A DNA stretch of 64,000 nucleotides, from the IMG/VR virus record IMGVR_UViG_2843860951_000002, positions 16,041 to 80,040 of that record. One strand, given 5' to 3'. Shown here one piece after another: positions 14,049 to 33,586 of the stretch. Source of the stretch: a virus. The notes beneath the pieces were generated by a model. The model saw nothing but the letters and a program-made list of their open reading frames with translations. It was not told the origin of the DNA and made no database searches. The translations under genes were made by a program, and so were the position numbers. Every line of letters starts with the position of its first letter. The first letter of the stretch is position 1.

Positions 14049-14269
14049 TATGCTGTCTCCAGCGGCGCTCCACGAGAACGCAGCAGTTCTATTTCTGCAG
14101 GGTTAGTCACAACCTCCCCTGCGCTCCATTCGAACCGGCCACGATTGAATTCTTCCTCAATGAAGCCAAAAGGCCGCAGAAGCCGCACTGCCTGCACAGG
14201 AGCGGGTTTTTTCTCGTCCTGCGCAGGAGGAACGGCTGGTTTAGCCGCCCCGCGCCGCGCTTGGCTCAT
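14048..14269 (-). CDS. Small hypothetical protein after the capsid gene
   Basis: 73 aa, coupled to the capsid stop codon. Confidence 0.6.
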   Translation of the reverse strand: MSQARRGAAKPAVPPAQDEKKPAPVQAVRLLRPFGFIEEEFNRGRFEWSAGEVVTNPAEIELLRSRGAPLETA

Positions 14270-15348
14270 CAGGCTGTAGCGCCCAGAGATGTTGCGCCAA
14301 GGCTTTCAATCACCACGCCACGCTTAAGGTAGCTGTTGGTCGCCGTGGGAATGATCGTTGTATTGGCCGTCAGGTCAGTTGGCAGAGCAAAGCCACCAAT
14401 CCAAGACCAAGACTGCGCAATGATCTGCCCCAGACGATCCAGCGGCGGACGGGTAACCATCAGCACATCATCAATATGCTCCACCTCACCCGGAAGATCG
14501 GCATATGCCTGCGCCATGTTGGCATAGTCGCCCTCGATCAGCGCACCCGCACCACAGATGATGGCACGATGAATCTGGCCCTGCCCCAGAGACGCCTGCT
14601 GCGGGGCTTCCGTGGTCGGGATAAACCGGATGCCCAGCAGTTCGAACACCTGACCTGTCCGGTATTCATCAGACCCATACTGACCGCGATACAGCAGCTT
14701 GAAATCAGGATCGCGGAATAGGCCGAGAAGCTGGGAGTTGTCGAGAAAGCAGTTGAAGCAACCACCAATCGTCGGAACGTTGTTGTTGCGCAACGCAGCA
14801 ACTGCCCCCAGCATGGTGTCGATGGTCAGGTAATCACCTGTCACCACATTGCCATTGGCGTCTTTGGAGCCCGATGCCAGAAGTCCTGCTGTTGTGGCAC
14901 GACCATTCGGGCGCAGAACCAGAGGTGCAGTTGCGGCAACCACCGCGGCATTCAATGCCGCATCAGTTGTCGCAACATTCTCAGAGAACGTCAGCGTGCC
15001 AGAAATACCGCCCGGTGCATTGCTGACGTTTGTCGCATCCGCAGCAACATTAACCAGCGTATAAGAGCCGGAACCAACGGTAACAGTCATGCCACTGGTT
15101 GCAGAAACCGGGATAACCTGCCCCATGCTATTCATGACGCGCTGGAAACCACGGATATCATCAACCTGAACGGTTGTGCCTGCGGCTGCCAGTGCTGTGG
15201 TTACGCGGGTGTTCCCGCCCAGATACCCACCAACACCACCAATAGCGCCACCGAACAAGGAATTACGCGCCAAACGGTCAAGAGACTGACGGGCGTTAAT
15301 ACCCAGAACCTGTGCATTTTCGACAAACTGGTTCGCAATTCCGACACC
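14269..15348 (-). pseudogene. Major capsid protein, 3' part (codons 106-464 of the restored gene)
   Basis: GVGIANQF..NA..LG..ARQSLD.LARN.LF..GGNTRV continues in frame from ..DLNQVTE (28885-29199) once the insert is removed. Confidence 0.88.
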
Positions 15349-15356
15349 TTCCGTGA
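15344..15356. repeat. Satellite att site, integrase side
   Basis: ACACCTTCCGTGA vs ACACATTCCGTGA at 28880-28892; identical core TTCCGTGA at 15349-15356. Confidence 0.88.
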
Positions 15357-15375
15357 GGGTGTTGTATCCTATATA

Positions 15376-15388
15376 AATCAATAACTTA
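15376..15388 (+). promoter_or_regulatory. IHF-consensus site in the left att arm
   Basis: AATCAATAACTTA matches WATCAANNNNTTR exactly; inverted copy at 28842-28854. Confidence 0.75.
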
Positions 15389-15415
15389 TGTATAAATGTC
15401 GCGGATTTGTTGCAC

Positions 15416-16621
15416 TCAGTCAGTCTCCGGCAGCATCAATGATGCAATCTTTTGTATTTCCGCTTGTTGCTTGTGCTCCGTAAGTAGTGGGTGAGCATAA
15501 CGCTGAAGGGTCATATCAAAAGATGCATGCCCTAGTAATTTAGCTACATCTGTAACTGGCATTCCTCCACCAACCATAGCACTGGCAGCAAAATGCCTTA
15601 GGGCATGGAAATGATAACTAGGTCCTTTTTTCTCGGTCTCTAATCCAGCCCTGATTAAAAGATTACGCCATACTTCATGCATGTCAGCACGTGTGATCCC
15701 TTTGCTTCCTGTTTTGTCATGCATTTTGGAACGTTGCGTCTTGCAGAACAGCAAATTTCGATTATCTGGGATTAGGTGATGATCTAACCAATCAGTAAAT
15801 AACGCGCGTACATGTTGTGGCATTGGCACATCTCTAAATCCGGCGCGAGTTTTGGGGCCCTTTAGTTCATTCAGCGAAGTAAGAGAGTTTCTGATGCGTA
15901 AAATTCCATTCTGTAAATCAACATTTTGAACAGTAATCCCTGATATCTCACCAAATCTGAGTCCACAAAACACAGCGGAATGCACAAAAATCCGTAATTT
16001 CAGCCATGAACGAATAGACACATTTGGCTGCCGTATATCTACTGTCTTTATAAGCTGTTGTATTTGTTCAATAGAAAAAGTCGCGATCTTGTCAGATTCA
16101 CCGCCACGCCAATCTTTCAGCACTGCATCGAAGGGCTGCCCTTTGGCATAACCTCGTTTGATACCGAACTCGCAAACTTGCCTAGCCGTATTTAAGACTT
16201 CGCGTATCGTAACTTTTTTATATCCAGCTTTTGCCATTTTTCTTGCAATGGCATCACCTTCGTTAAAACCTAGATCTTTTTGCAAAATATCGCCGACTAC
16301 GGGGAGTATATGATTACGAATATACCCCTCACGTCCACGTCTATACAGTTCGCCAACACCGTGCCCTGCCTGTGAGCGAAGAATTGCATCGTCTATGAAT
16401 TCTTGAGCAACTCGCTCCATAGTGGCACTTTTCTTATCTGAAACATGCCGCCCCTCTAAAACATCGACCACAATAGACGATCGAAAGAGATCAGCTTCCT
16501 TCTTGAGTTTGAACGATTTTTGCGTTCTATTCCCCATCTCATCGGTATAATCCACTACCCATGCACTACGATTTTTTCCGCCCGTAACCCAATTACGCTT
16601 TCTAACTGATGCTCGTGCCAC
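15416..16621 (-). CDS. int: Tyrosine integrase of the satellite
   Basis: N-terminal arm-binding region; catalytic set GLRFGE, PKT, HALRH, LLGH, QRY present. Confidence 0.95.
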   Translation of the reverse strand: MARASVRKRNWVTGGKNRSAWVVDYTDEMGNRTQKSFKLKKEADLFRSSIVVDVLEGRHVSDKKSATMERVAQEFIDDAILRSQAGHGVGELYRRGREGYIRNHILPVVGDILQKDLGFNEGDAIARKMAKAGYKKVTIREVLNTARQVCEFGIKRGYAKGQPFDAVLKDWRGGESDKIATFSIEQIQQLIKTVDIRQPNVSIRSWLKLRIFVHSAVFCGLRFGEISGITVQNVDLQNGILRIRNSLTSLNELKGPKTRAGFRDVPMPQHVRALFTDWLDHHLIPDNRNLLFCKTQRSKMHDKTGSKGITRADMHEVWRNLLIRAGLETEKKGPSYHFHALRHFAASAMVGGGMPVTDVAKLLGHASFDMTLQRYAHPLLTEHKQQAEIQKIASLMLPETD

Positions 16622-16626
16622 AACTT

Positions 16627-16920
16627 TTATCCTATCCTATTCATTGAATGCTGCCCCTGAGGAACTGCGTTAGACAGTTCCTCATCTATCGACGCACATC
16701 GGCGTTCCATTTCACCGGATAGCCATTCCAGAGCCATGCCCACAGCACTCATGTTGGGGCCGCTTTCTTCCGAACCAGTAAGCATGCCATTGCTCATGGC
16801 CTGAAGGCATATCCCGATGCAGGACAATTCGCTGGTTGCGTCCTGAATGACGCTCAGTCGGTCGGGTGTTGCCACGGGGCTTTTGCGCCGTTGTGGTGCA
16901 GAAGTGTGTTTCTGGCTCAT
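16627..16920 (-). CDS. Small helical-hairpin protein (paralog 4)
   Basis: ALEWLSGEMERRCASI motif; coupled ORF chain upstream of int. Confidence 0.6.
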   Translation of the reverse strand: MSQKHTSAPQRRKSPVATPDRLSVIQDATSELSCIGICLQAMSNGMLTGSEESGPNMSAVGMALEWLSGEMERRCASIDEELSNAVPQGQHSMNRIG

Positions 16921-17177
16921 GCCTTTACCCCTGTAAGTGCCAGAACATCCCTCGCCAGACTGGCTTCCATACTTCTGTCATCTTCGGACACAAGAAGAAC
17001 CAGACGGGCCTTACATTGCATATCCTTGATGTTCCGGGCTTTGGTGTTCGCAACAGCGCGACAGGCCTTCACGAAGCGACGGCTTTCCGTTTCTCCTTCC
17101 TTGAAATTATGAGCTTTCCAGCTACGGCGATCAGAATTGATGGCGGCGACCGTGGCGGCTTGTATTGGAGTGGTCAT
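16917..17177 (-). CDS. Small hypothetical protein
   Basis: Start MTTPIQ, overlapping neighbours at both ends. Confidence 0.6.
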   Translation of the reverse strand: MTTPIQAATVAAINSDRRSWKAHNFKEGETESRRFVKACRAVANTKARNIKDMQCKARLVLLVSEDDRSMEASLARDVLALTGVKA

Positions 17178-17440
17178 GCCACTTCCTCCGGCAACATCCA
17201 GCCTGGCGCATCTTTCACGCCTGTATGCGCTGCCAGCAGATCCAGATGATCCTGCAACCGGTGGCTCAACCAATGGAGCGCTTCGGGTTCGGTGATGTCG
17301 CATTCATCACAGCTCCATCCGGCTGTCACTTCCACTATAATGGCGGCCATCATCCGTGCGTCACGCAAAATGCAGCTTTGGATACGCATGTTTTTGAAGG
17401 TTTCCTGTTCGAAACCTGTGAGAGACATCTGGTTGCTCAT
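17174..17440 (-). CDS. Small helical-hairpin protein (paralog 3)
   Basis: ALHWLSHRLQDHLDLL motif. Confidence 0.6.
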   Translation of the reverse strand: MSNQMSLTGFEQETFKNMRIQSCILRDARMMAAIIVEVTAGWSCDECDITEPEALHWLSHRLQDHLDLLAAHTGVKDAPGWMLPEEVA

Positions 17441-17676
17441 TTCTGCGGCCTCCACGTCTCGCCGCCAGTAACTTCCTGCAGACGACTTAGCGTTGAGCAG
17501 AGTTCATCTGCCAGCCAGTGCCGGACTTCGGGAAAGACCACTTCATTTTCTGGATGGCTCAAGTCATGGATAGCGCGTGCAATTTGCTCGGCCTTATGAA
17601 GCAAAAGGTGCGGTTTCTTATAGTTGGCAAGATGATCGCGTTCGGCCTCTGTCATGGCTGTAGGTGTGTTGCTCAT
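17437..17676 (-). CDS. Small helical-hairpin protein (paralog 2)
   Basis: VRHWLADELCSTLSRL motif. Confidence 0.6.
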   Translation of the reverse strand: MSNTPTAMTEAERDHLANYKKPHLLLHKAEQIARAIHDLSHPENEVVFPEVRHWLADELCSTLSRLQEVTGGETWRPQK

Positions 17677-17882
17677 TATCGGGCACCTCGCGCCTTAAGG
17701 TCTTCCAGAATGGCGCCATCAAGTTCGTGGTGCAGACGCTCCACCCATTTGTGCAGCCATTCTAATGGCGGACGCTCTCCGCAAGCTTGTAAGCCATCCA
17801 ACACGTCAGACAGGCCCGCCAGCTCACACATGACGCTATGAGCTTTATGATTGAGAGAATTATCCGTTGGCATCTTGCTCAT
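17676..17882 (-). CDS. Small helical-hairpin protein (paralog 1)
   Basis: PLEWLHKWVERLHHEL motif. Confidence 0.6.
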   Translation of the reverse strand: MSKMPTDNSLNHKAHSVMCELAGLSDVLDGLQACGERPPLEWLHKWVERLHHELDGAILEDLKARGAR

Positions 17883-18058
17883 CGTACAGCCTCCAGCTTC
17901 TGGGCTGCGTGGCCAGTTACGACAGGATCAGGCATTGCTGCCCATATCAGGGCTAGCACAGCAAGAACTGGGAAAATCAAAGGTGGTAAATTTCCCCACA
18001 CAGGGGAAAAAATGAATGTACAGGCGCGAACCCGTACGCTATGGGCGTGTTTAGCCAT
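17879..18058 (-). CDS. 59-aa single-TM protein, missing from the ORF track
   Basis: MAKHAHSVRVRACTFIFSPVWGNLPPLIFPVLAVLALIWAAMPDPVVTGHAAQKLEAVR; GAGG RBS; ATGA overlap with 17882. Confidence 0.55.
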   Translation of the reverse strand: MAKHAHSVRVRACTFIFSPVWGNLPPLIFPVLAVLALIWAAMPDPVVTGHAAQKLEAVR

Positions 18059-18140
18059 TAGCTTGTGTCCTCAAGTTTGTGGTCAGGTCTGCTCTGGAAA
18101 TCTCACCTTCCAAAGCAGACCGTTTGGCTTTCCAACCAAA

Positions 18141-18159
18141 GTCAGTTATAAAGACTGAC
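18141..18159. promoter_or_regulatory. Candidate operator of the satellite XRE regulator
   Basis: GTCAGT-N7-ACTGAC inverted repeat in the divergent promoter region. Confidence 0.5.
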
Positions 18160-18186
18160 ATTGTATAAAGTCAAGTGTGAGAACTA

Positions 18187-18426
18187 ATGTCAGACATAAC
18201 ATCTGAGCAATGCCTCGGAGCCCGAGCAATGCTGCGTATGACACGCAATGAATTGGCAGAGGCATCAGAAGTAGCCGTTGCTACATTATCTGACTTTGAA
18301 TCTGGAAAGCGATCACCTCACCCCCGCACCCTTGGCGCCATTCGCTCCGCCTTAGAAGCCGCGGGTATTGAATTCATTACTAAAAATGACAAGGGAGTTG
18401 GATTACTATTGAAGTATAAAAAATAA
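18187..18426 (+). CDS. XRE-family HTH regulator (satellite repressor candidate)
   Basis: Q..GARAML.MTR.ELAEASEVAVATLSDFESGKRSP; divergent from the int-linked operon. Confidence 0.9.
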   Translation: MSDITSEQCLGARAMLRMTRNELAEASEVAVATLSDFESGKRSPHPRTLGAIRSALEAAGIEFITKNDKGVGLLLKYKK

Positions 18427-18530
18427 TACTTGTTTTTAATAAGATATATTCAGAATTTATCTATGGTTATAATTTTAAAACCGTTTTTAATCTCAATTGA
18501 TATAGACACAAAAATTTAGGATGCACTTTT

Positions 18531-19028
18531 ATGAACTTACGTCAGAAAATAAACGCCCAAGCCACACAAAAGGACGCAGAAGAGGCGTTTGAAAATAGTA
18601 GACCGGAAAGAGAACAGGCAATCCGTTCTCAAATGGATTTCTTAATAAAAAAAATTGAATCATTTTTAACTGAATATATTAGAGAAGGGCACGTAAAAAT
18701 AGATTTCTCTACTTCAATTTATAAAATGGATGGCACAGAACATACTGCGATGCCTTCGTTAATAATTAATTTCCCAAAGGAAGAACTTATTCTGGTGTTG
18801 GATAATGAGCACGGTGCTGCCTCATACAGACTCTCTGCAACACTACGCCACCAACCGTTCACGAGAAACCCGCGAAAAGTGAAATTTCTTTTCAAAAACA
18901 ATTCGTGGCTCCTAAACGGAAAGCTTGTTCCTTCTGATGGCGGCTATGCTTTTTTTCAGGACAATCACAACACTGTAGAGATTACCCCAGACAGCCTAAA
19001 TTGCGCTATTGCATCCATTCTAGCGTGA
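18531..19028 (+). CDS. AT-rich hypothetical cargo protein
   Basis: 165 aa, opposite strand to the structural genes, AT-rich. Confidence 0.65.
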   Translation: MNLRQKINAQATQKDAEEAFENSRPEREQAIRSQMDFLIKKIESFLTEYIREGHVKIDFSTSIYKMDGTEHTAMPSLIINFPKEELILVLDNEHGAASYRLSATLRHQPFTRNPRKVKFLFKNNSWLLNGKLVPSDGGYAFFQDNHNTVEITPDSLNCAIASILA

Positions 19029-19076
19029 AAACATAAATATGTGACGAGATTACCTATCTCGTCACATAACCCCAAT

Positions 19077-20420
19077 TTACCGAGCGAGGCTAAAGCGTTT
19101 GCTTGAAACCCAGCGAGCAGGCACAGGCCGGCTTTCAACCATAAGTTCCGTGAGCCCCCAAACCAAAGCGTCCATTCTGTCTGGGGAATTTCCTGATCCA
19201 GGCACCCATTCCACCATTTGATCTTCAAGGGTGGGAAAAGCGCCGACATGATGCACTTTTTCCTGCTCGTATAGTGCCATAATAGGTTCTGCCCTAACGA
19301 GCTTCCCCCGACTGGCATGCACGACTTTTACAGGTACAGTGCCGTCTTCACTGTGAATTGTTGCTGTAACCATCTCGCCGCCGAAATTGTTTTCAGCCAC
19401 AATTTTATCAGCGTTCCAGTGTTTATATGCCCGAACTGCTTGGCGAGCCCACCCGCCAGGGCTGTAACGGCCAGACAAATCCTCCAGAATGTATCCTTTG
19501 TTATCGGTACCGTAGGCGCAGACGATAATGCCAGTTTCATCAGACCTTTCATGAGATGATCCTGCTGGATCTATAGCAATAACGATTCGCCTGAATATCC
19601 GGTCTGATGATGGTTCAACACGAAGCGCATCCAGCATTTCACGAGTCCAGAGAGTTCCGCTTCCATCATCCAGTAATTCACCATCAAGTTCTTGCCTGCC
19701 CAACGTTGTGCCGCCGTATTTTTCCATAAGCTGGGCTAGAGCTGTACGGCTCAAATTCGCTGCATTATCCTGCGTCCGTGAACGTGTCACGACCGTCAAA
19801 TCACTCTTGGCCAGAGAACGAATAAGAGGAATCGGCTTTGGCGTAGTGGAGCACACAATTCTCGGTGCATCTCCCAGAGGACCATCTACGCGGATTGCCA
19901 TACTGAGCACGTCCCAAGCGTACTCACATTTTCCCCACGTTACGATTTCGTCGCACCATGCGCCATCAAGATTCAGGCCGCGTAATCGTTCCGGTTCTTC
20001 TGCTGAACATAGATGGCAAAGGGCTCCGTTTGGATACAACAATTTCCCTGTGGACGGCTCATAAGTAGGCCTGAACTCAGGCGGAGATATCGCCAGCATT
20101 CCACTAGGGCCTTCAATTTGAACACGGCGAAGGGCATTGGCCGTGGGGCCAACGATTGCCATTTCCTTCCGGCGCCCGCTTTCAATCTCACCACGAACCC
20201 ATTCAGCAGCGGTTCTCGTTTTCCCGCTGCCTCGTCCGCCGAGCAAGAGCCAGACAAACCAGTCACCTGCCGGTGGCAACTGGTCTGGACGAGCCCAGAA
20301 AGACCAGACGTAATGAAGCGCAGCCAGTTCTTCGGATGAAAGTGAACTGAGAACAGCACGGCGTTCATCAGGTGGCAGATCTGCCACCCGTGAAGCTAAA
20401 GATATTTTCAGATCGTCCAA
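19077..20420 (-). CDS. terL: Terminase large subunit of the satellite
   Basis: WARPDQLPP..W.VWLLLGGRGSGKT (Walker A), AWCDEI (Walker B), IAIDPA nuclease motif, DRMDALVW. Confidence 0.93.
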   Translation of the reverse strand: MDDLKISLASRVADLPPDERRAVLSSLSSEELAALHYVWSFWARPDQLPPAGDWFVWLLLGGRGSGKTRTAAEWVRGEIESGRRKEMAIVGPTANALRRVQIEGPSGMLAISPPEFRPTYEPSTGKLLYPNGALCHLCSAEEPERLRGLNLDGAWCDEIVTWGKCEYAWDVLSMAIRVDGPLGDAPRIVCSTTPKPIPLIRSLAKSDLTVVTRSRTQDNAANLSRTALAQLMEKYGGTTLGRQELDGELLDDGSGTLWTREMLDALRVEPSSDRIFRRIVIAIDPAGSSHERSDETGIIVCAYGTDNKGYILEDLSGRYSPGGWARQAVRAYKHWNADKIVAENNFGGEMVTATIHSEDGTVPVKVVHASRGKLVRAEPIMALYEQEKVHHVGAFPTLEDQMVEWVPGSGNSPDRMDALVWGLTELMVESRPVPARWVSSKRFSLAR

Positions 20421-20920
20421 GCGTCTCTCCGGCGTTCAATCTCTGCCATGATTTCTTTTTTGCGAGGCATCACTACTCGCCTGTCTTGTTCTGTCAGTTT
20501 GGCTGCTGGAAACAGAATAAGATTTCCAGGGTGAATAACTTCAAACGAAATTCCCTTGGCCATCAGCCTTTCGACTAGATCAGAAATACTTTCATGAGAT
20601 TGCTGCCGTTGGTCAGGGCTTGCATTCGTAAAGGTTGCATTCGCAAATACGATTGCAGCTAATTCGTTCTCAGGAGCATTTCGTACAGAAATAAAGAATA
20701 CTTCTGCTTCTTTCATTTCTTTATCATATTGCTCTTTAGCCATTTTTGCCCGAACAGCATCCCCTGAATGCTGCTCACGATAATAAATTCCCATCCTTTG
20801 CCGGAGAAGATTAAAACGTGGATCCAATACACGAAAGAGGTCGTGTCCACGTGCGCGCGCCTCTTTGTAGGCGATTGCTACCCTATCTTCGATTGAGAGA
20901 TTCGCATTTAGCTGCGTCAT
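20408..20920 (-). CDS. Hypothetical helical protein
   Basis: 170 aa, overlaps both neighbours. Confidence 0.6.
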   Translation of the reverse strand: MTQLNANLSIEDRVAIAYKEARARGHDLFRVLDPRFNLLRQRMGIYYREQHSGDAVRAKMAKEQYDKEMKEAEVFFISVRNAPENELAAIVFANATFTNASPDQRQQSHESISDLVERLMAKGISFEVIHPGNLILFPAAKLTEQDRRVVMPRKKEIMAEIERRRDAWTI

Positions 20921-21192
20921 TTTTTGCTACCCCATTTTTTTGCCCATTTTTGCAAAGACCGCGAATTAATGCTGTCGCGCATATTGCTCTGGATATCAGC
21001 GTTGATGCGCTTCAGTTGTTTTTTGCATTCTTCTTCGGATGCCATGCGTGCGTTGAATGTAAACGCATCTGGATACCTGTCCTGCAAACAAGAAACTGCT
21101 TGTTCAGGAGAGAGATTTTCATCAGCAATTTTTAGTAAAGTCATATCGTTCAGGCCCGCTTTGATAGCGGCCTGCTCTAATTTTGTGCACAT
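20917..21192 (-). CDS. Mini scaffold-like protein (homolog of the helper scaffold C-terminal domain)
   Basis: LEQAAIKAGLND..LLKIAD..AV..LQDRYPDAF-TFNARMASEEE vs helper AKALATKLGAVSPDDVVRLID..VMDAAKESRGYLF..PFNARKATPEE. Confidence 0.6.
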   Translation of the reverse strand: MCTKLEQAAIKAGLNDMTLLKIADENLSPEQAVSCLQDRYPDAFTFNARMASEEECKKQLKRINADIQSNMRDSINSRSLQKWAKKWGSKK

Positions 21193-21255
21193 GATTTTCT
21201 CTTATAAGTAAGATTATTACTCAAGGAATAGGCTTAATTAAAAGCTTACCCCTGC

Positions 21256-21384
21256 CAATCATCACCAGCCCGGAACACCCGGCACCCGTGGCGTTGAAAG
21301 TGGATCTGGCATAGCATTACTTGCCCGCATTTCGCGGTCATAATCCTTCCTAACCACACTTTGCACATGCCCGGCGATCTGCTT
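21256..21384. repeat. 129-bp perfect direct repeat, copy 2 (3' end of satellite TMP gene)
   Basis: Identical to 4391-4519; similarity extends 9 bp further with two synonymous changes. Confidence 0.97.
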
Positions 21385-23349: not shown

Positions 23350-23354
23350 TATTG

Positions 23355-23816
23355 TTACTCTTTCAGGCCAGCTATTTCTGTGATTTTTTTTGCAATTTTC
23401 TTTGTAATACTGTGTTCTTTGCGGAATAACGCTGTCGCGATAACTGGACGCGGAGGCTGTTTCATCGTTCCTTCTTCAAACCATTTTGCCACCACATCGG
23501 GATTCCCAATAATCACCTTTGACCCATCTTCAATATAAGATGAATAAAGCGCTCGCATCTCACCTGTTCGCAAGCCCGGTTCATTTTCGGAAAACCCGCG
23601 GGCTAACCTATCCTGTTTGGTACTGATAGCCAGTTCATCCCAAGGGGGAAGGTGACCCATATTTGCCCTTTGGTAGGTACCTACTTCTTCTTTGCAATCA
23701 GCAACAAGCAATATGGCGGCTTTTTCCAAGGCAATCAGTTGCGCTCGTTCTACCACCTCTGGAATTTTTTCCATTTGAGACAAAAAACTTTGTTCACTAA
23801 GCGGATTAGCCGCCAT
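23355..23816 (-). CDS. HK97 gp10-like tail component (satellite copy)
   Basis: ELA.STK..RLARGFSENEPGLRTGEMR, FEEGT.KQPPRP; homologous to 8039-8545; start at MAANP mirrors the helper overlap. Confidence 0.72.
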   Translation of the reverse strand: MAANPLSEQSFLSQMEKIPEVVERAQLIALEKAAILLVADCKEEVGTYQRANMGHLPPWDELAISTKQDRLARGFSENEPGLRTGEMRALYSSYIEDGSKVIIGNPDVVAKWFEEGTMKQPPRPVIATALFRKEHSITKKIAKKITEIAGLKE

Positions 23817-24006
23817 CACTATTGCGCCTATGAAAGCGCCCCTCTCCCAAACTCCATTCGATTTCACCACATGAATCAAGTTCTTTGTTCATAATGCATG
23901 CAGCTGAAATCATCTCGTCTGACCATGTATCAAGAACATGGATGGGGATCCCATTCCGGGCGAGATAAACCAACGCCCGGAAGTTAGGATCCCTTAGGAA
24001 TTTCCC
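23806..24006 (-). CDS. Satellite tail chaperone -1 frameshift extension, missing from the ORF track
   Basis: Slippery G GGA AAT (24000-24006); -1 frame GKFLRDPNFRALVYLARNGIPIHVLDTWSDEMISAACIMNKELDSCGEIEW..DGG* is homologous to the helper extension. Confidence 0.8.
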   Translation of the reverse strand, partial: GKFLRDPNFRALVYLARNGIPIHVLDTWSDEMISAACIMNKELDSCGEIEWSLGEGRFHRRNSDGG

Positions 24007-24425
24007 AGCTTTTCTTCTGGAGCCTCCTGCGTCTTGGCTTGACCTCCGGCTATATCTTCAACAAGCGCTCGCATGTAGGCTTGCTGTCCTATATTCCCGA
24101 TCTTATCCAAAAGATCGCAAATTTCACTTTTGCTCTCTGGGGTCATTTCAGGCTCGCCATCAAGGTCAACAACTGAAACCGCCATCATGACTGCAAAGCT
24201 CACATCGTCATTCTGGATGTTACCCCACATGTCTAAGGCCCTCACCCGTAAACTTAACGGGATAGATTTAAGGAATTGGATCTCCCTTCCTTTTTTATCC
24301 TCTTCAAATTTAACCGTAATACAAGAAGGTTTTTTTCCTCCAATTTTATACTTTGCAGGCCCTTCTTCCCACGAAAAGCCAGCGATTTTAGGGAGTTTAT
24401 CTTTGGAGGTCTTTTCTTTTGTCAT
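23994..24425 (-). CDS. Tail assembly chaperone (satellite copy)
   Basis: MMAVSVVDLDGEPEMTPESKSEICDLLDKIGNIG vs helper MVCSVTAIDGVPVQMPITKDEVKELANDIGNDG. Confidence 0.78.
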   Translation of the reverse strand: MTKEKTSKDKLPKIAGFSWEEGPAKYKIGGKKPSCITVKFEEDKKGREIQFLKSIPLSLRVRALDMWGNIQNDDVSFAVMMAVSVVDLDGEPEMTPESKSEICDLLDKIGNIGQQAYMRALVEDIAGGQAKTQEAPEEKLGNS

Positions 24426-24625
24426 TTGCGGGGCCCTGCTTTATCAGAATGATTATTAAAAATATTACATGACGGGGAAACTTCGTAAGCAGCTCCATAT
24501 GGGATAGGGATACCAGATATCCGGGCGCTGTTATTCTGGCACCCAATCACGATGTATGCCGCGCTACGGGCTGGCTCAATTGGCTCTGCTGTAGCAATAG
24601 TTTCAAGAGTGTCTCGTGAAAACAT
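24422..24625 (-). CDS. Small hypothetical protein
   Basis: GGAGG RBS, ATGA coupling to the chaperone gene. Confidence 0.55.
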   Translation of the reverse strand: MFSRDTLETIATAEPIEPARSAAYIVIGCQNNSARISGIPIPYGAAYEVSPSCNIFNNHSDKAGPRK

Positions 24626-24642
24626 TGTCCCTCCGTGGACAT

Positions 24643-24666
24643 AAAAAAACCCGCTGTAAAGCGGGA
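24643..24666 (-). terminator. Intrinsic terminator upstream of the satellite tail module
   Basis: CCCGC-TTTACA-GCGGG followed by a T7 run on the minus strand. Confidence 0.65.
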
Positions 24667-25095
24667 TTAAAAACTAACTTTTGCATCTGTTCGTTCAGGC
24701 GGATCTAGTAAATCCGCATAACAAAAAGTGCCCGGCAATATGGTGAAGGGGCCGCCAACATACGTGATTCCTTCTCCGCCTTTCAGGTCTGTTAAGTAGG
24801 CGACCTGCCCAGGGGGAATTGTCTTATTCCCTGTGCCAGTTTCAAAGCCATTTACTGGTGGAGATAGCTGAAGCTGCGGCGCTTCTGGATTTCCGGGGGT
24901 GTAAAATAGTGTCAGATTACCTTTACCACCATTACGGATTGCCATGACTGCGGCATCCTGTAGCTGATCAGGTACCGTGATAGTAGCTGTCCCGCAGATG
25001 GGAGCAGCGGGCACAGCCATCGCGCCACTTACGCCGCCTGGTGCATCTGGATAAGCACTTGGATTTTGTGATGTCGTGATAAACAATCTTTTCAT
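24667..25095 (-). CDS. Hypothetical Pro/Gly-rich, beta-rich protein
   Basis: Start MKRLF with AAGGA RBS; no family recognised. Confidence 0.6.
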   Translation of the reverse strand: MKRLFITTSQNPSAYPDAPGGVSGAMAVPAAPICGTATITVPDQLQDAAVMAIRNGGKGNLTLFYTPGNPEAPQLQLSPPVNGFETGTGNKTIPPGQVAYLTDLKGGEGITYVGGPFTILPGTFCYADLLDPPERTDAKVSF

Positions 25096-25106
25096 ATCGT
25101 TTCCTT

Positions 25107-25769
25107 TTATTCGCTGGACAAAACTCCAGATACCGCTTTGGCTGTCCACTTCCCTCCACGGGGAGTGCGGACAGATCGCTGGTCAAGTTCGTTCGCGATA
25201 GTTTGCAAACTCATTCCTTGGCCGCGCAATTCCTTGATCAGAGGGCGAACAGAAGCCCGGAACTCTTCTTTTTTCCGTCTCACAGCTGCTGTGCCGGCTT
25301 TCTGATCCACTTTTGGGCCGCCTCTATAACCACCTAGCTTAACGCCACGTGCCTTGGCAGCAGCCAACGCCTCTTTCGTGCGCTGGGATATGGCTTCCCG
25401 TTCTTGTTGGGCCACAAGCGCCATAATCCCTATAGTCATCTGATTGGCGCCGGGCATATCTGCGGCGACGAAATTGATGCCTGCGTCTTTTAAGCCGATA
25501 AGGAATGCAGCGTTACGAGAAAGCCGGTCGATTTTGGCTATGACAAGCGTTGCACCTGTCAGACGACATTCTTTCATGGCCAATTCTAATTGAGGACGGG
25601 CATCATTCTTCCCAGTTTCAATTTCAGTGAATTCGGCCAGCAATTCCCAATCACCGCCATTTAGGAAATTTCGGACAGTGTGCTGCTGTGCCTCTATTCC
25701 AAGACCAGATTTTCCTTGTTTTTCAGTGCTTACGCGGTAGTAGGCGACAAATTTTCCGTTCATGTTCAA
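25107..25769 (-). CDS. Serine recombinase (resolvase/invertase family)
   Basis: FVAYYRVSTEKQ, DRLSR, ERE.IS.RTK.AL..AKARG, C-terminal helical DNA-binding region. Confidence 0.93.
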   Translation of the reverse strand: MNMNGKFVAYYRVSTEKQGKSGLGIEAQQHTVRNFLNGGDWELLAEFTEIETGKNDARPQLELAMKECRLTGATLVIAKIDRLSRNAAFLIGLKDAGINFVAADMPGANQMTIGIMALVAQQEREAISQRTKEALAAAKARGVKLGGYRGGPKVDQKAGTAAVRRKKEEFRASVRPLIKELRGQGMSLQTIANELDQRSVRTPRGGKWTAKAVSGVLSSE

Positions 25770-25798
25770 ATCCAGACGACGAAGGTTGTCTGATTTTG

Positions 25799-26227
25799 CT
25801 ACGGACTTTTCTCACTATTTGCAATCGTTTTTTTTGTCTCATTTTCTGGCTCAAGATCAATTACTGGCTTCTGTTGCGGTTTGAATGCTTCCAGCATCTG
25901 ACTGATCTTTTCTACCATGTGTGTACCAGAGACTTCCTGCTGACCATCCTTTGGCGTTGCATCCGCTGTAACCTGCATGGAAAGCCTTGGCCGACAATAT
26001 GGAAGTGCTGCTTGATAAGCTTTCACGCGCAATTCTAAGGGCGTTTCTGGACTGTCAGCAATTTCCAGCAGCGAAAGAAGCGGATCTCGGCCTTCTTCCA
26101 TAATCTGCACCAATGTCTGCCGCGCTTTAACCATAACTTTTTGTGGTCGTTTGCTCTGCCACTCAGCACCTGATTTACGGCCAGCGCCTTTACGCTTTCC
26201 TCCTGAGCCGCTCGAGGTTCCTGGCAT
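25799..26227 (-). CDS. terS: Putative terminase small subunit of the satellite
   Basis: GGKRKGAGRK..., DPL..LLEIA....PLELRVKAYQAALPYCRPRL, a motif I associate with small packaging subunits. Confidence 0.55.
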   Translation of the reverse strand: MPGTSSGSGGKRKGAGRKSGAEWQSKRPQKVMVKARQTLVQIMEEGRDPLLSLLEIADSPETPLELRVKAYQAALPYCRPRLSMQVTADATPKDGQQEVSGTHMVEKISQMLEAFKPQQKPVIDLEPENETKKTIANSEKSP

Positions 26228-26417
26228 TCAATACTCCTATTTCCCCCGATCTTGGGGTTTCACGCACGCGCTGCGCGCAGAAGCCAGAATGCTCCTACGC
26301 CAACGGGCGGGGCAAGCGGGGCTATGCACAGCCTCGCGCCTGATTTGATTATAACGGGGCTGGCAGTTGGCAACGCATGCCCAATTCACCTATGCAGAAT
26401 TCCTAAACACTGGAAAC

Positions 26418-26535
26418 TTTGCACGGAACTGCACGGAACCCGCACGGGTGAGTGATCCGCACGCACGGATCATCTCCCCTATAGGGTTCCGAGATCCATG
26501 CGCGCGCGGATTTGCACGGAACCTGCACAGATCAT
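26418..26535. repeat. Candidate satellite replication origin
   Basis: GCACGG at 26421, 26431, 26442, 26463 and 26514; hairpin TGATCCG-N6-CGGATCA; palindrome CCCTATAGGG; directly after the helicase gene. Confidence 0.6.
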
Positions 26536-27740
26536 TCCTCCCCTCCTCCATCAGTCCAAACTACACAGGAAGGCTTTCCATCGGGGGTTCGTATTCCCTG
26601 AGCAGTACCTCGGTTATCACGCCTAAATGTCGCCACCTCATATCCCTCGTGGAGTAGATCGTTCAGAACCTTCTTCTGCCCATCAGCCGTGCTTACGCCA
26701 CAGTCAGTCAAAAGCTTCCTGATAGACCGTTGATCTTTTGACAATTTAGGGCTCCAAGGGCCTACAGGACTTCCTTTCGCGACCCCTGCTTCAATAAGGT
26801 TCATTTGCTCCAATGAGACGCTATCCTGCGGAGGCATCCATGGCTTCATGACTGCCACTCGGTCACCATTATTTAGTTCGTAAGACTGCCGTTCAAACCA
26901 TTCTTCCTTGCCGATCGGAGCCGCATTGATCTTGGCCCCATCGACGCGAGAGAAGAACCGCCTATGGTCAGCCGGTAACCCAAAGTTTTGTGCTTCTGCT
27001 TCTGACATAACACTAACCGTCAACACTACGCGGGCGGCACCAACAACGGCAGATGCACCTCGGGACACGTCAGGATCTCCTGGAATGGCAGCTACTCCTT
27101 TCCGTGTATGATGCAAGAGAACGACGGCCATATCATACCGCACAGCCAAGGCACGGAAATGAGCCATTACCTTGCGAACTGCAGTATTGTCGTTTTCTTC
27201 TGCTTCATGCAATTCAACCAACGGATCCAGCATCAACACATCGGGCCTGCGCTTTTGGATTTCAGCTTCCATTTGTTTCATTGCCGGAGTGTCAAACATC
27301 TCTTTGCTATCTTTCTCCTGCTCAAGCAACGTTCCGATAGTCTCCGTGCCTACGCGGGCAACATACCCATTCAAATCTGCCGGGCACTTACCCATGAACC
27401 GCAAAGCAGCAGAGAACCGCCGACGCTGTTCGTCACGATCATCCTCAACATTGTAAGTCATGACCTTCATGCGCTTATCTGGGGTCAATCGCCCATAGCT
27501 CTCTCCTAGTGCAAGAGACGCTGCCCATCCCACCATTAGGCTTGACTTCCCCGAAGCAGGTGCACCCACCACAACAGTGACAGCACCACGCAGGAGGATC
27601 CCAGAAGCTACCCAAGGGCGGGAGGGAATATCGTTTTCGTCCCAGTTCTGATCATCTATTACAAGAGGGAGAACAGGCGTATGCTGCTTATTCTGCGCTT
27701 CAATTACGCTTTGGTGGACAATTTCTCCGATTTCATTCAT
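26532..27740 (-). CDS. RepA-like replicative helicase (AAA_25 type)
   Basis: Walker A GAPASGKS, NVED, LMLDPL, LLHHTRKG, SRGASAVVGAAR. Confidence 0.88.
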   Translation of the reverse strand: MNEIGEIVHQSVIEAQNKQHTPVLPLVIDDQNWDENDIPSRPWVASGILLRGAVTVVVGAPASGKSSLMVGWAASLALGESYGRLTPDKRMKVMTYNVEDDRDEQRRRFSAALRFMGKCPADLNGYVARVGTETIGTLLEQEKDSKEMFDTPAMKQMEAEIQKRRPDVLMLDPLVELHEAEENDNTAVRKVMAHFRALAVRYDMAVVLLHHTRKGVAAIPGDPDVSRGASAVVGAARVVLTVSVMSEAEAQNFGLPADHRRFFSRVDGAKINAAPIGKEEWFERQSYELNNGDRVAVMKPWMPPQDSVSLEQMNLIEAGVAKGSPVGPWSPKLSKDQRSIRKLLTDCGVSTADGQKKVLNDLLHEGYEVATFRRDNRGTAQGIRTPDGKPSCVVWTDGGGEE

Positions 27741-28519
27741 CCACCCATCCTTGCCCTCAACGCAGATGCGATGGTCTTTTCAACTTCAGTTGCACTTAGG
27801 CCTGCTTCTAACCCAGCAGCCGCCATGACAACTGCAATTTCATTGGCTGATAGATAACCTTCGGCAATGAACCTTCCTAATGCAAAGGTTTCGGCATTAA
27901 GAGTTTGATTTCTTAACCCATTGCCTGCGGTAGCAACCTGCCGAGCAGCTGAACGAAGAGCAGATTGGACATAGCGATTTGCGTTTTCTATGCCGTGTTG
28001 CAATCTTTCAAGTTTAGGTTTGGGAGGTGGCGAAGGTGTTGCAAGTTCTACTAGCCATGCCGGCCATTGCTGGATGCGAGCACGCTCAACTATCTCTAGC
28101 CCAGCCGCAGGCCACCAAATGATATATCCTCCATCAGCCCTAACATCCACGCCCGGCGCTATCCGGCCGGCACTGTTCCTCATGCCTTCTCGGTGCCTGA
28201 ACAATAAATGAAGCCCCCCAGAACGGGTGCGATTAATCCGGGTGCCGGTCAGTCGGGCGCAGTGTTCTTGGTAAAAATCGTCACCACCCTTTCCCCAGTC
28301 CAGATCAAGTGCATCAAACCCAGACACAGAACCTGTAACTGCTCCAATAAGAGCCCCTGGATGAGCGCGCCAGAGCATGGCAACAGTTTCCGGGCATTTG
28401 CTCGACAATTTAGTCCATTTGCAAGTAGGTCGCTTCTGCTCATCACAGGGGAATACCTGTACCCCGCAGCGCGCTAATTGTTGGGCATAGACCACAACAG
28501 AACCATTTGCCGTAGTCAT
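27737..28519 (-). CDS. Bifunctional primase/polymerase (Prim-Pol) with primase C-terminal region
   Basis: VFPC..KRP, ALDLD, RTRSGGLHLLF, GVDVRADGGYI, GLRNQTLN..F.LGR; start MTTANG by ATGA overlap. Confidence 0.88.
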   Translation of the reverse strand: MTTANGSVVVYAQQLARCGVQVFPCDEQKRPTCKWTKLSSKCPETVAMLWRAHPGALIGAVTGSVSGFDALDLDWGKGGDDFYQEHCARLTGTRINRTRSGGLHLLFRHREGMRNSAGRIAPGVDVRADGGYIIWWPAAGLEIVERARIQQWPAWLVELATPSPPPKPKLERLQHGIENANRYVQSALRSAARQVATAGNGLRNQTLNAETFALGRFIAEGYLSANEIAVVMAAAGLEAGLSATEVEKTIASALRARMGG

Positions 28520-28716
28520 GACTGCCCCGCTTCGCAGTTTTTCAACCACTGGCGCAGCGTTTCAGGTCGCGCACAAATAGTCTTCCCAATACGAAAGCAT
28601 GGGATACGCCCCTGCTCATTCCAATAGGCAACTTGACGAGGAGATGTGCCGAGGAACTCCGCAATCGCTCTCGTCCCTGCTAGAATTTCGACAGAGAAAG
28701 TAACACTATTTTTCAT
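28516..28716 (-). CDS. AlpA/excisionase-like winged-HTH protein
   Basis: G.RAIAEFLG.SPRQV.YW...GRIP.FRIGKTICAR...L.QWL; first gene inside the right att. Confidence 0.8.
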   Translation of the reverse strand: MKNSVTFSVEILAGTRAIAEFLGTSPRQVAYWNEQGRIPCFRIGKTICARPETLRQWLKNCEAGQS

Positions 28717-28841
28717 GTCGCAGTTTGCCTGATATTTGTCGCATGCATGCAGCACGGAAATGCCGTGCATTGTCGTAACTCCTTGGTTTTCATCGTTCTT
28801 ATCGAACAGAGCGAATAGGCAAGAAATCTCACGACATTTTT

Positions 28842-28854
28842 TAAGTTATTGATT
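28842..28854 (-). promoter_or_regulatory. IHF-consensus site in the right att arm
   Basis: TAAGTTATTGATT, reverse complement of 15376-15388. Confidence 0.75.
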
Positions 28855-28879
28855 TTGTTATAATTATTGAAGGATATAA

Positions 28880-28892
28880 ACACATTCCGTGA
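28880..28892. repeat. Satellite att site, xis side
   Basis: ACACATTCCGTGA; core TTCCGTGA at 28885-28892. Confidence 0.88.
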
Positions 28893-29199
28893 CCTGATTG
28901 AGGTCCATCGTGTTACCGAACTGCGCAATTTCCAGCGTGTACTGTTCCACAGACCATTCCGTGGGAGACATGCCGTTATCGAAATTGCTGTTGGCCGCGG
29001 GATTGAGCGGAGTTTCAACCGGAGCCAGCAAACCACGACGGGTGTCCGTAATGGTCTGACCGATACGAGCCGGAAATTCCATGCGGTCAGCAACGGAACG
29101 AAAGCCAAGTTTGGATTCAAGGCTGGCTTCAAACGCACGGGCCAGAAAGCCCTGCTGGATAATGGGTTGTAGTGCTGCGGGGAAATCGGCAATTGCCAT
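28885..29199 (-). pseudogene. Major capsid protein, 5' part (codons 1-105)
   Basis: MAIADFPAALQPIIQQGFL.R.F...L..KLGFR..ADR.EF..IG.TIT.TR; follows the scaffold gene; frame diverts into element sequence (CVYILQ*) right after the att core. Confidence 0.9.
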
Positions 29200-29924: not shown

Positions 29925-29944
29925 CAGTCCCTCACTTTTTGATT

Positions 29945-29966
29945 AAAAAAAACCGGCATCAGCCGG
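29945..29966 (-). terminator. Intrinsic terminator between portal and scaffold genes
   Basis: CCGGC-TGAT-GCCGG followed by T8 on the minus strand. Confidence 0.6.
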
Positions 29967-29971
29967 AAGCG

Positions 29972-33442: not shown

Positions 33443-33586
33443 ATCCAACACTCCAGAATGAAAAATGCGCTTCCTGCCTTAACGCTGCTAATTTAAGGCG
33501 GCACGTTTTACCCATGCCGTTGACCAATACCTACTACACGGGAGCCAACGGTTAGAGAGAACAGGATTGCGATGTGCGCTACATCG

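What the first reader, a model, noticed from the sequence alone, without database searches (positions are those of the whole stretch)
14269..29199. Helper major capsid gene is split, and precise excision would restore it in frame
Seen: the 5' part (29199-28885) ends ..TMDLNQVTE and the 3' part (15348-14269) starts GVGIANQF. Both junctions carry TTCCGTGA. A crossover there gives one 464-aa ORF (105+359 aa). No other lesion is visible in the helper head and tail genes in this window. Inference: the satellite acts as a reversible gene switch (as skin or comK-type elements do in host genes), but here on an essential viral gene, so the helper cannot make particles without releasing the satellite.
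Basis: partly seen in the sequence, partly recalled or inferred. Interest (0 to 1): 0.92.

Follow-up and report, generated by a model that had tools for sequence, protein, structure and literature searches.

The report
Phage satellite embedded in helper capsid gene
A 13.5-kb phage parasite ("satellite") sits precisely inside the major capsid gene of an Acetobacter prophage, so the prophage can probably build heads only after the parasite cuts itself out; the arrangement was published in 2023 for E. coli-type bacteria, but this appears to be an independent and differently equipped lineage.

Summary
The helper major capsid gene is split at 28885-29199(-) and 14269-15348(-). The two parts abut without gap or overlap on intact homologues: phiKX1 coat protein, and a 464-aa Acetobacter protein 96% identical to the 3' part. 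The 13,536-bp insert is flanked by TTCCGTGA. In four other assemblies this block is a perfect 13 bp; the window's left copy carries one mismatch.

The insert is a satellite-like element. It has a tyrosine integrase, an Xis-like HTH, Prim-Pol, an AAA_25 helicase, a resolvase, its own TerS-like and TerL genes, and a tail chaperone/tape-measure cassette. It has no capsid or portal gene.

- Nearly identical copies sit at the same site in helper variants about 5% diverged, and the divergence starts at the core. This points to recent site-specific mobility.
- Syntenic or integrase-related elements occupy two other sites in the same gene, in Novacetimonas and in Komagataeibacter-like contigs.

Excision-dependent capsid restoration is inferred, not shown. 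The concept is in print: helper-embedded PICIs (Tommasini et al. 2023, PMC10111431). This scan has also met those E. coli elements before. This element fails the integrase-clade, gene-order and attP-motif tests for that family. It is in Alphaproteobacteria with a myovirus helper.

Verdict: real, a new variant of a known kind.

The parts
28885..29199 (-). Helper major capsid gene, 5' part (codons 1-105); the ORF runs on 6 codons into the element to 28864
   Evidence: phrog_1357 major head protein, E 3.4e-15; aligns to residues 1-105 of phiKX1 coat protein
28880..28892 (-). attL identity block, TCACGGAATGTGT on the minus strand; one G>T mismatch at 28884 relative to attR and to other copies
15344..15356 (-). 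attR identity block, TCACGGAAGGTGT on the minus strand
14269..15348 (-). Helper major capsid gene, 3' part (codons 106-464)
   Evidence: phrog_1357, E 1.3e-45; 79% identical to phiKX1 coat; 96% identical to the intact P0001
15349..28884 (-). Inserted 13,536-bp satellite-like element, co-oriented with the helper late genes
15416..16621 (-). Tyrosine integrase (401 aa), last gene before attR
   Evidence: PF00589 E 9.5e-28 and phrog_1; catalytic R, K, HxxR, H and Y present
28516..28770 (-). 84-aa HTH protein, first gene after attL; candidate excisionase (AlpA/Xis-like)
   Evidence: HTH_17 at 24.8 bits, below the cut-off of 27; phrog_66 'excisionase and transcriptional regulator' E 3e-4; its homologue lies directly after the integrase in L016
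27737..28549 (-). Prim-Pol primase/polymerase
   Evidence: PF09250 E 3.3e-19
26532..27740 (-). AAA_25 (RepA/DnaB-like) helicase
   Evidence: PF13481 E 8.6e-36; phrog_25693 E 5e-162
25799..26227 (-). 142-aa small-terminase candidate
   Evidence: Weak phrog_641 TerS hit, E 0.006; homologues lie directly upstream of the same TerL type in L032, L035, L036 and L039
25107..25769 (-). Small serine recombinase (resolvase/invertase, about 218 aa)
   Evidence: PF00239 E 3.2e-27; 87% identical to its counterpart in the L017 element
23355..23879 (-). Homologue of the helper protein encoded just upstream of the tape measure gene (tail chaperone-like)
   Evidence: 37% identical to helper 8123-8521; also matches the equivalent helper genes in L013 and L017
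21262..23349 (-). 695-aa tape-measure-like protein; its last 48 aa are 94% identical to the helper 773-aa protein
19077..20420 (-). Satellite large terminase (447 aa)
   Evidence: Terminase_6N and Terminase_6C; unrelated to the helper TerL except for the C-terminal peptide
18187..18426 (+). HTH_3 (Cro/CI-type) regulator, oriented opposite to the rest of the element
   Evidence: PF01381 E 2.9e-8
29280..33451 (-). Helper scaffold (29280-29924), portal (29972-31489), TerL (31489-33024) and TerS (32969-33451), upstream of the split capsid gene
   Evidence: PHROG hits

Best explanation
The insert is a helper-embedded phage satellite of a non-PICI lineage found in acetic acid bacteria. Its tyrosine integrase recombined an attP core (TCACGGAAGGTGT) with the identical sequence at codons 103-107 of the major capsid gene of a phiKX1-like temperate myovirus. 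This cut the gene into a 105-codon head and a 359-codon tail.

While it is integrated, the helper cannot make full-length coat protein. The helper late genes downstream are also separated from their promoter by 13.5 kb that contains a strong terminator-like hairpin.

Proposed cycle on induction (inferred):
- Int, probably directed by the 84-aa Xis-like HTH protein next to attL, excises the element precisely and restores the 464-codon capsid gene.
- The element replicates with its own Prim-Pol and helicase.
- It is packaged by its own TerS/TerL into heads built from helper proteins. Its TerL ends in the same C-terminal peptide as the helper terminases, and its tape-measure-like protein carries the helper's C-terminus.

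Shown: the precise insertion, the empty site, element integrity, recent mobility into diverged helpers, and family recurrence in the same gene. Inferred: excision on induction, dependence of helper particle formation on that excision, and packaging into helper capsids.
For: Precise split and empty site.

Intact integrase with all catalytic residues. Xis-like gene at attL.

The same arrangement is present in the complete genome CP021524.1 and in contigs from three further SRA studies. Both junctions were bridged in X1 and X3, and the left junction in X2.

Divergence step exactly at the core:
- attR side: 0 of 1370 differences in the element against 126 of 2417 (5.2%) in the helper, starting 5 bp past the core.
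- attL side: 18 of 7530 in the element against 20 of 735 in the helper; and 35 of 7333 against 122 of 2687.

The capsid 3' part has dN/dS of 0.03-0.06 between occupied helper variants and no stop codons.

A syntenic element in Novacetimonas hansenii (helicase 81%, resolvase 87%, TerL 70%, integrase 37%) sits at codons 15-20 of the same gene, with a 17-bp core, in frame. A 43%-identical integrase abuts a capsid gene that begins at codon 68 in Komagataeibacter-like contigs.

Satellite-helper matching: the TerL C-terminal peptide is shared by three otherwise unrelated TerLs, and the tape-measure C-terminus is 94% identical.

The helper late genes are intact. The phiKX1 lineage forms mitomycin-inducible myovirus particles (PMC8566455).

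Precedent: HE-PICI 11capE excises precisely after induction (PMC10111431).
Against: There is no direct evidence of excision or of an attP circle.
- Only contigs were available, and element and flank depths are equal in X1 and X3.
- The attP junction is absent from viral contigs and metagenome contigs.
- The one empty-site contig (run X10) is about 4% diverged from the window flanks, so it may be a different strain's prophage.

The window's attL core has a G>T mismatch. This could lower excision efficiency, or, if the crossover lay to its right, give a G106C coat protein.

Packaging into helper capsids is untested. Recombination among helper prophages could contribute to the divergence step.
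Confidence: 0.7

Rival explanations
1. Dead-end composite. The element once integrated site-specifically, but in this strain the pair is now inert. The capsid gene is permanently broken, and neither helper nor element is mobilised.
For: No excision product was seen. The window-specific G>T change in the attL core may impair recombination. Tommasini et al. could not recover virions from their composite and noted many truncated helpers (PMC10111431).
Against: Every element and helper late gene checked is full length. Near-identical elements sit in helpers about 5% diverged, which shows very recent mobility of the lineage. The inverted-repeat symmetry of the reconstructed attP places the mismatch at the edge of a core-binding arm rather than in the TCACGGAA overlap; this last point is inference.
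Confidence: 0.17
2. Prophage lock or defence island. The element's main role is to hold the resident prophage in a non-productive state, to the benefit of the host or of the element. It does not use the prophage as a helper and spreads by another route.
For: The insertion disables an essential late gene and is polar on the tail genes, given the strong terminator-like hairpin at 19068-19038. A related integrase in Xanthobacter lies next to BrnTA and a 2003-aa DUF4011 helicase.
Against: The element carries TerS-like and TerL genes, a tape-measure cassette and helper-matched C-terminal peptides. These make sense only if it is packaged into, and assembled with, helper parts. No conjugation or relaxase genes were found among its ORFs.
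Confidence: 0.08
3. Transposon insertion with an 8-bp target-site duplication, or an assembly artefact.
For: An 8-bp direct repeat flanking an insert is also what a transposon leaves. IS elements do interrupt this capsid gene in other genomes, G070 and G239.
Against: The element has no transposase. A tyrosine integrase lies at its end. A 13-bp identity block is shared with the empty site. The same site is used in diverged helpers. The arrangement is present in a finished genome and in at least four independent assemblies.
Confidence: 0.02

Closest known systems
Helper-embedded PICIs (HE-PICI, type element Eco567.11capE at site E:Phage_cap_E:80); Tommasini, Mageeney and Williams 2023, PMC10111431
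   Same: [quoted passage not shown] It has a short identity block (10 bp there, 13 bp here) and no replacement sequence in attP, so the gene is restored only by excision ('regulated gene integrity'). Related integrases use several different sites in late genes. Late genes have been captured from helpers.
   Different: - The integrase is not in that clade: no Arm-DNA-bind_3 domain, and 24% identity over 188 aa.
- The integrase lies at the downstream end, not the upstream end.
- There is no AlpA next to the integrase and no Int-Bro-Rep-Late order.
- The HE-PICI attP motif TGTATTGC is absent.
- Replication uses Prim-Pol plus an AAA_25 helicase, not a P4-type primase.
- The element carries its own TerL, a TerS candidate and a tail chaperone/tape-measure cassette, but no capsid gene.
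- The helper is a phiKX1-like myovirus, not a lambdoid siphovirus.
- The hosts are Acetobacteraceae (Alphaproteobacteria), whereas all HE-PICIs surveyed were from Enterobacteriaceae.
- Excision has not been demonstrated here.
Regulated gene integrity / active lysogeny elements in host genes (skin in sigK, SPbeta in spsM, phi10403S in comK, SpyCIM1 in mutL)
   Same: An integrative element interrupts a coding sequence, and precise site-specific excision reconstitutes it at a defined time.
   Different: Those elements interrupt host genes and serve host developmental or physiological programmes. Here the interrupted gene belongs to another mobile element, and the arrangement presumably serves the satellite. 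This comparison rests on my own knowledge and on the discussion in PMC10111431; nothing about those systems was tested here.
Classical satellites (P4, PICI/SaPI, cfPICI, PLE)
   Same: A small integrative element with an integrase, a regulator and its own replication genes, lacking most structural genes, and with features matched to a specific helper.
   Different: Those satellites integrate in the chromosome and act in trans. None of their hallmark genes appeared in the Pfam or PHROG hits (P4 sid/psu/delta, cfPICI capsid/portal/protease). Carrying a full TerL and a tape-measure gene is unusual for a satellite; that last statement rests on my own knowledge.

Membership tests
HE-PICI (Tommasini et al. 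2023) | Integrated within, and disrupting, a late gene of a prophage, with no replacement sequence in attP | tested here: met
   The capsid gene is split at codon 105/106, and the element supplies only 6 unrelated codons before a stop.
HE-PICI (Tommasini et al. 2023) | Key satellite genes co-oriented with the interrupted late gene | tested here: met
   The integrase, Prim-Pol, helicase and TerL are all on the minus strand, like the capsid gene.
HE-PICI (Tommasini et al. 2023) | Integrase belongs to the single HE-PICI clade within the P4/PICI integrases (Arm-DNA-bind_3 N-terminal domain) | tested here: not met
   11capE Int has PF13356 at 3.2e-19; the window Int and its relatives do not. BLASTP gives 24% over 188 aa, E 1e-4. 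Identity in alignment is 19-25%, against 34-45% within the alphaproteobacterial group.
HE-PICI (Tommasini et al. 2023) | Four-zone order Int/AlpA - Bro - Replication - Late, with the integrase at the upstream end | tested here: not met
   The order here is Xis-like, Prim-Pol, helicase, TerS-like, resolvase, tail cassette, TerL, regulator, small ORFs, Int. Compare L018.
HE-PICI (Tommasini et al. 2023) | Doubled attP motif tgTGTATTGCa flanking the core | tested here: not met
   TGTATTGC is absent from the element. The only window match is at 50996.
HE-PICI (Tommasini et al. 2023) | Precise excision after prophage induction, restoring the late gene | not testable with these tools
   Only Logan contigs were available. 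No attP junction was found in the collections.
Tyrosine site-specific recombinase | Catalytic R, K, H-x-x-R, H/W and Y | tested here: met
   LRFGE, KTRAG, HALRH, GHAS and RYAH are all present and aligned with relatives. PF00589 at 9.5e-28.
Phage satellite (general) | Lacks the genes for an autonomous virion but carries integration and replication functions and helper-matched features | tested here: met
   No capsid, portal, sheath, tube or baseplate hit among the element ORFs. Helper-matched TerL and tape-measure C-termini.
Phage satellite (general) | Mobilised in helper-encoded particles | not testable with these tools
   Indirect only: near-identical copies in diverged helpers.
P4-like, cfPICI, PLE | Hallmark genes (P4 alpha primase with sid/psu/delta; cfPICI capsid, portal and protease; PLE-specific genes) | tested here: not met
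   None appear among the Pfam or PHROG hits of the element ORFs. No dedicated satellite classifier was run.

The most novel reading that the evidence does not exclude
Acetic acid bacteria harbour an independently evolved family of helper-embedded satellites, unrelated to PICIs by integrase, replication genes and gene order. Its members have repeatedly retargeted their integrases to different sites (codons 15-20, about 68, and 105/106) within the same major capsid gene of phiKX1-like myoviruses. They bring their own terminase and a tail chaperone/tape-measure cassette fitted with helper C-termini. If so, taking the helper's capsid gene hostage is a convergent, general satellite strategy rather than a peculiarity of one enterobacterial integrase clade, and these satellites may also remodel the helper's tail.
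Probability: 0.55. Interest if true: 0.72.

Novelty: new variant of a known kind. Interest (0 to 1): 0.6.

Why it matters
Helper-embedded satellites have so far been documented only for one integrase clade of PICIs in Enterobacteriaceae with lambdoid helpers. I found no report of them in any other bacterial group.

A second, unrelated lineage in Alphaproteobacteria would show that cis-control of a helper, by sitting inside its coat gene, evolved more than once. This lineage uses three sites in one capsid gene and has a myovirus helper.

It would also give a tractable, non-pathogenic system in vinegar, kombucha and fly-gut Acetobacter. Three questions could be tested there:
- whether satellite excision gates helper head and tail production;
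- how an unrelated terminase is fitted to a helper portal by a short C-terminal peptide;
- whether a satellite-encoded tape measure changes tail length.

Prophage induction also matters for industrial acetic acid fermentations.

Tried and rejected
- E. coli genomes: no match for the junction region, so the window is not enterobacterial.
- Single-protein scans with the integrase in viral contigs and genome contigs found nothing.
- A helicase-alignment scan of genome contigs gave only Acetobacter nitrogenifigens (L019). That locus has the replication module but no capsid gene, TerL or integrase nearby, so it is not an embedded satellite.
- attP and attL junction patterns are absent from viral contigs, and attP is absent from metagenome contigs.
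- Short capsid proteins P0107 and P0115, which begin at 'VGIA...', looked like further split genes. They are a frameshifted uninterrupted gene and a contig end.
- P0002 and P0006 (386 aa) did prove to be truncated capsid genes next to an integrase.
- Family survey. The capsid protein is found in 208 of 401 Acetobacteraceae species genomes. I opened 15 of the roughly 20 genomes with several or weak matches.
  - Thirteen are adjacent frameshift fragments or single partial matches whose cause I did not determine.
  - G070 and G239 are IS insertions.
  - G154 is a contig break with a 35-bp overlap at codons 65-77, and is inconclusive.
  - G394 has a partial capsid match together with a full-length satellite-type TerL. 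Its capsid locus was not examined. The 20-kb region fetched around its TerL (L033) showed a tape-measure-like gene but no capsid gene.
- Genomes with a full-length satellite-type TerL (L032-L039) showed no capsid fragment within the region fetched.
- 'Serine recombinase frameshifted': rejected. It is a complete 218-aa resolvase, 87% identical to its L017 counterpart.
- Lookup with my Prim-Pol start codon failed because gene callers use a later start.
- Read laying gave contigs only, so neither RNA evidence nor rare excision junctions could be assessed.


Full report
**1. The observation**

On the minus strand the capsid reading frame runs from 29199 to ...CAG GTC ACG GAA at 28885. It then continues into unrelated AT-rich sequence for six codons. 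At the other end the sequence reads ...ACACCC TCACGGAA GGT GTC GGA ATT..., and the frame runs on to a stop at 14269.

- TTCCGTGA lies on the + strand at 15349-15356 and 28885-28892, which makes the insert 13,536 bp.
- Both parts hit PHROG 1357, 'major head protein', over complementary parts of the profile: 22-124 and 138-356.
- Against the uninterrupted 462-aa coat protein of Komagataeibacter phage phiKX1, the two parts abut at NQVTE|GVGIANQF with no gap and no overlap.
- A protein search with the 3' part returned a 464-aa uninterrupted Acetobacter protein at 96% identity. That is exactly the predicted 105+359 aa.
- The prophage encoding that protein (L004, CP023189.1) is collinear with both window flanks at 88-89% nucleotide identity. 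The two alignments overlap by 13 bp, TCACGGAAGGTGT, which is present once in L004 and twice in the window.

**2. What the insert is**

All genes but three lie on the capsid gene's strand. In the direction of helper late transcription the element encodes:

- an 84-aa HTH protein (HTH_17 just under threshold; phrog_66 'excisionase and transcriptional regulator', E 3e-4);
- Prim-Pol;
- an AAA_25 helicase;
- a 142-aa protein;
- a 218-aa resolvase;
- small ORFs;
- a 174-aa protein and a 695-aa protein;
- 91-aa and 170-aa proteins;
- a Terminase_6N/6C large terminase;
- on the opposite strand, a 165-aa ORF and an HTH_3 regulator;
- several small ORFs;
- a 401-aa tyrosine integrase that ends 60 bp from attR.

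The integrase has all the catalytic residues.

The 142-aa protein is probably the small terminase. Its homologues lie directly upstream of the same TerL type in four other Acetobacteraceae loci.

The 174-aa and 695-aa proteins are homologues of two helper proteins: the one encoded just before the 773-aa tape measure candidate, and the 773-aa protein itself. The last 48 residues are 94% identical to the helper's, and the corresponding 152 nt are 96% identical.

No capsid, portal, sheath, tube or baseplate gene is present. The element is therefore satellite-like. It can integrate, replicate and probably package, but it must borrow heads and tails.

**3. The helper**

Upstream of the split gene lie TerS, TerL, portal and scaffold. 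Downstream lie head-completion genes, sheath, tube, chaperones and the 773-aa protein. Gene lengths match the uninterrupted prophage one for one. The helper's own integrase (49701-50741) and DnaB helicase are also in the window.

The phiKX1 lineage comprises mitomycin C-inducible myovirus particles of acetic acid bacteria (PMC8566455).

**4. Is the element active?**

The exact integrase protein occurs on seven contigs, and the helicase on six. These come from the finished genome CP021524.1, which is identical to the window, and from three further SRA studies.

Laying Logan contigs on the region showed both junctions bridged in two runs (X1, X3) and the left junction in a third (X2). Element and flanks had equal depth. 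A fourth run (X10) held a contig that joins 15348 to 28885, the empty form, but at about 96% identity to the flanks.

The most telling result comes from comparing the occupied copies.

- On the attR side, the element is 0 of 1370 different from the window. The helper differs at 126 of 2417 positions, beginning 5 bp beyond the core.
- On the attL side, the figures are 18 of 7530 (element) against 20 of 735 (helper), and 35 of 7333 against 122 of 2687.
- The helper variants even carry different terminase modules. L027 has the 437-aa L004-type TerL, while the window has a 511-aa type.

A nearly identical satellite has therefore entered, at the same 13-bp site, helpers that are about 5% diverged. 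This is strong evidence for recent site-specific mobility. It is hard to reconcile with a dead-end insertion for the lineage as a whole.

The capsid 3' part shows dN/dS of 0.03-0.06 between occupied variants.

In the other copies attL and attR share the perfect 13-bp block. The window's attL has G>T at 28884. The reconstructed attP has imperfect inverted arms (GGATACAACACC ... GGTGTTTATATCC) around CTCACGGAA. This suggests that the crossover lies in TCACGGAA and that the restored codon would be Gly. That reading is inference.

**5. Family recurrence**

In Novacetimonas hansenii CP062147.1 a syntenic 10.8-kb element interrupts the homologous capsid gene of a phiKX1-like prophage at codons 15-20.

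- Protein identities to the window element: Prim-Pol 60%, helicase 81%, resolvase 87%, TerL 70%, integrase 37%.
- It has a 17-bp core, CAGCAGGGCTA(T/C)CTTGC, and restoration would be in frame.

In several Komagataeibacter-like metagenome contigs, a 436-aa integrase (43% identical) directly abuts a capsid gene that is 97% identical to phiKX1's but begins at codon 68. Only that junction is on the contigs.

There are thus three different sites within the first quarter of one gene (codons 15-106 of 464).

Other members of this integrase family also lie beside phage structural genes: L016, L024 (directly upstream of a GpA-type TerL) and L025 (directly upstream of a complete major head gene). I could not map their ends.

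In a sample of 401 Acetobacteraceae species genomes, the capsid protein is present in 208. Of the roughly 20 genomes with several or weak capsid matches, I opened 15, and none showed a satellite-sized interruption. They were adjacent frameshift fragments, undetermined partial matches, two IS insertions, and one contig break (G154) at codons 65-77 that I count as inconclusive. The arrangement therefore looks uncommon among species representatives, although five candidates, G394 among them, were left unexamined.

**6. Mechanism**

The steps shown are:

- the precise insertion and the duplicated core;
- the empty site;
- the intact recombination, replication and packaging genes;
- recent mobility;
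- helper-matched peptides. Three otherwise unrelated TerLs end in ...PAR(W/F)V..KRFSL(A/S)R: the satellite's, the window helper's and the L004/L027 helper's.

The steps inferred are:

- that induction leads to Int/Xis-mediated excision which rebuilds the capsid gene;
- that until then the helper makes no coat protein and is polar-blocked for downstream late genes, given the strong terminator-like hairpin at 19068-19038 (a consensus scan only);
- that satellite DNA is packaged by its own terminase into helper heads.

**7. Comparison with what is known**

The concept is published. Tommasini, Mageeney and Williams (2023, PMC10111431) described helper-embedded PICIs, most often in the lambda E-type capsid gene.

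- They showed precise satellite excision after composite excision and replication.
- They named the phenomenon regulated gene integrity.
- All their elements came from Enterobacteriaceae.

I fetched the type element and tested membership. The window integrase lacks the Arm-DNA-bind_3 domain and is only 19-25% identical. The gene order differs. The HE-PICI attP motif is absent.

The element works like an HE-PICI but is not a member of that family. It looks like a convergent lineage with a different toolkit: its own terminase, a tape-measure cassette, no capsid gene, and a myovirus helper.

I found no paper on such elements in Alphaproteobacteria or acetic acid bacteria. Earlier agents in this scan repeatedly met the E. 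coli HE-PICIs and judged them known. Nothing like this element had been noted outside this window.

**8. Verdict**

The finding is real and well supported as a precise, site-specific interruption of the helper capsid gene by a satellite. The 'reversible switch' reading is plausible and has precedent, but it is not demonstrated here and is not conceptually new. The novelty lies in the lineage, host group, helper type, gene content and the three-site tropism for one capsid gene.

Noticed in passing
window 21256-21407 and 4391-4542: The satellite 695-aa tape-measure-like gene and the helper 773-aa gene share a 152-nt 3' end at 96% identity (45 of 48 aa). Elsewhere the two proteins are about 23% identical. 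The Novacetimonas sister element has only a 211-aa ORF matching this C-terminal region.
   Followed up: partly
window 19077-19185; 31489-31590; L004:7588-7713: Three otherwise unrelated large terminases end in the same peptide, ...PAR(W/F)V(S/T)(S/N)KRFSL(A/S)R. They are the satellite's (447 aa), the window helper's (511 aa) and the L004/L027-type helper's (437 aa). The peptide is a candidate portable portal-docking tail.
   Followed up: partly
window 25799-26227: The 142-aa satellite protein has homologues directly upstream of the same TerL type in four other Acetobacteraceae loci (L032, L035, L036, L039). It is probably the cognate small terminase. In the satellite it lies about 5.4 kb from terL, separated by the resolvase and the tail cassette.
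   Followed up: partly
window 16697-17931: In all four metagenome runs this stretch of small ORFs upstream of the integrase shows raised contig depth. Identical loose ends recur at 16697 and 17931. The module is evidently shared with other elements in the same communities.
   Followed up: no
window 28884: The window's attL core differs by G>T from its own attR and from the attL of four other assemblies, all of which have the perfect 13-bp repeat TCACGGAAGGTGT.
   Followed up: yes
window 19038-19068 (minus strand): A strong terminator-like hairpin (13 pairs followed by a T-run) lies immediately after the satellite TerL, where it converges with the + strand 165-aa and HTH genes.
   Followed up: no
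window 6802-7866 (+) versus L004:17632-18227: There is a variable moron slot between the tail chaperone genes and the tape measure gene. The window has an Ant/P63C-like gene there, L004 has HicAB, and L010 has other small genes.
   Followed up: no
L022 (G070:C2) and L023 (G239:C15): In two other Acetobacteraceae genomes the homologous capsid gene is interrupted near codons 300-310 by 1.3-kb IS elements. These are ordinary prophage decay, not satellites.
   Followed up: yes
L020/L021 (G154 contigs C38 and C473): The capsid gene is split across two contig ends that overlap by 35 bp at codons 65-77. The Komagataeibacter-type integrase inserts at this position, so this may be an unresolved occupied/empty polymorphism.
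   Followed up: partly
L024 (Xanthobacter sp., JBAFWT010000002.1) and L025: Integrases of the same family (36-37% identical) lie directly upstream of, and co-oriented with, a GpA-type TerL (L024, next to BrnTA and a 2003-aa DUF4011 helicase) and a complete major head gene (L025). This hints at a wider late-region tropism in Alphaproteobacteria.
   Followed up: partly
L036 (G267:C4:865700-885699): A cluster of TerS-like, TerL, chaperone-like, tape-measure-like and HTH genes resembles the satellite's late half. No capsid gene lies within 10 kb, so this may be a chromosomally integrated relative.
   Followed up: no
window 49701-50741 and 52526-53626: The helper's own tyrosine integrase is followed by an O-antigen acetyltransferase-like gene, which may be a lysogenic-conversion moron or the start of host DNA.
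   Followed up: no
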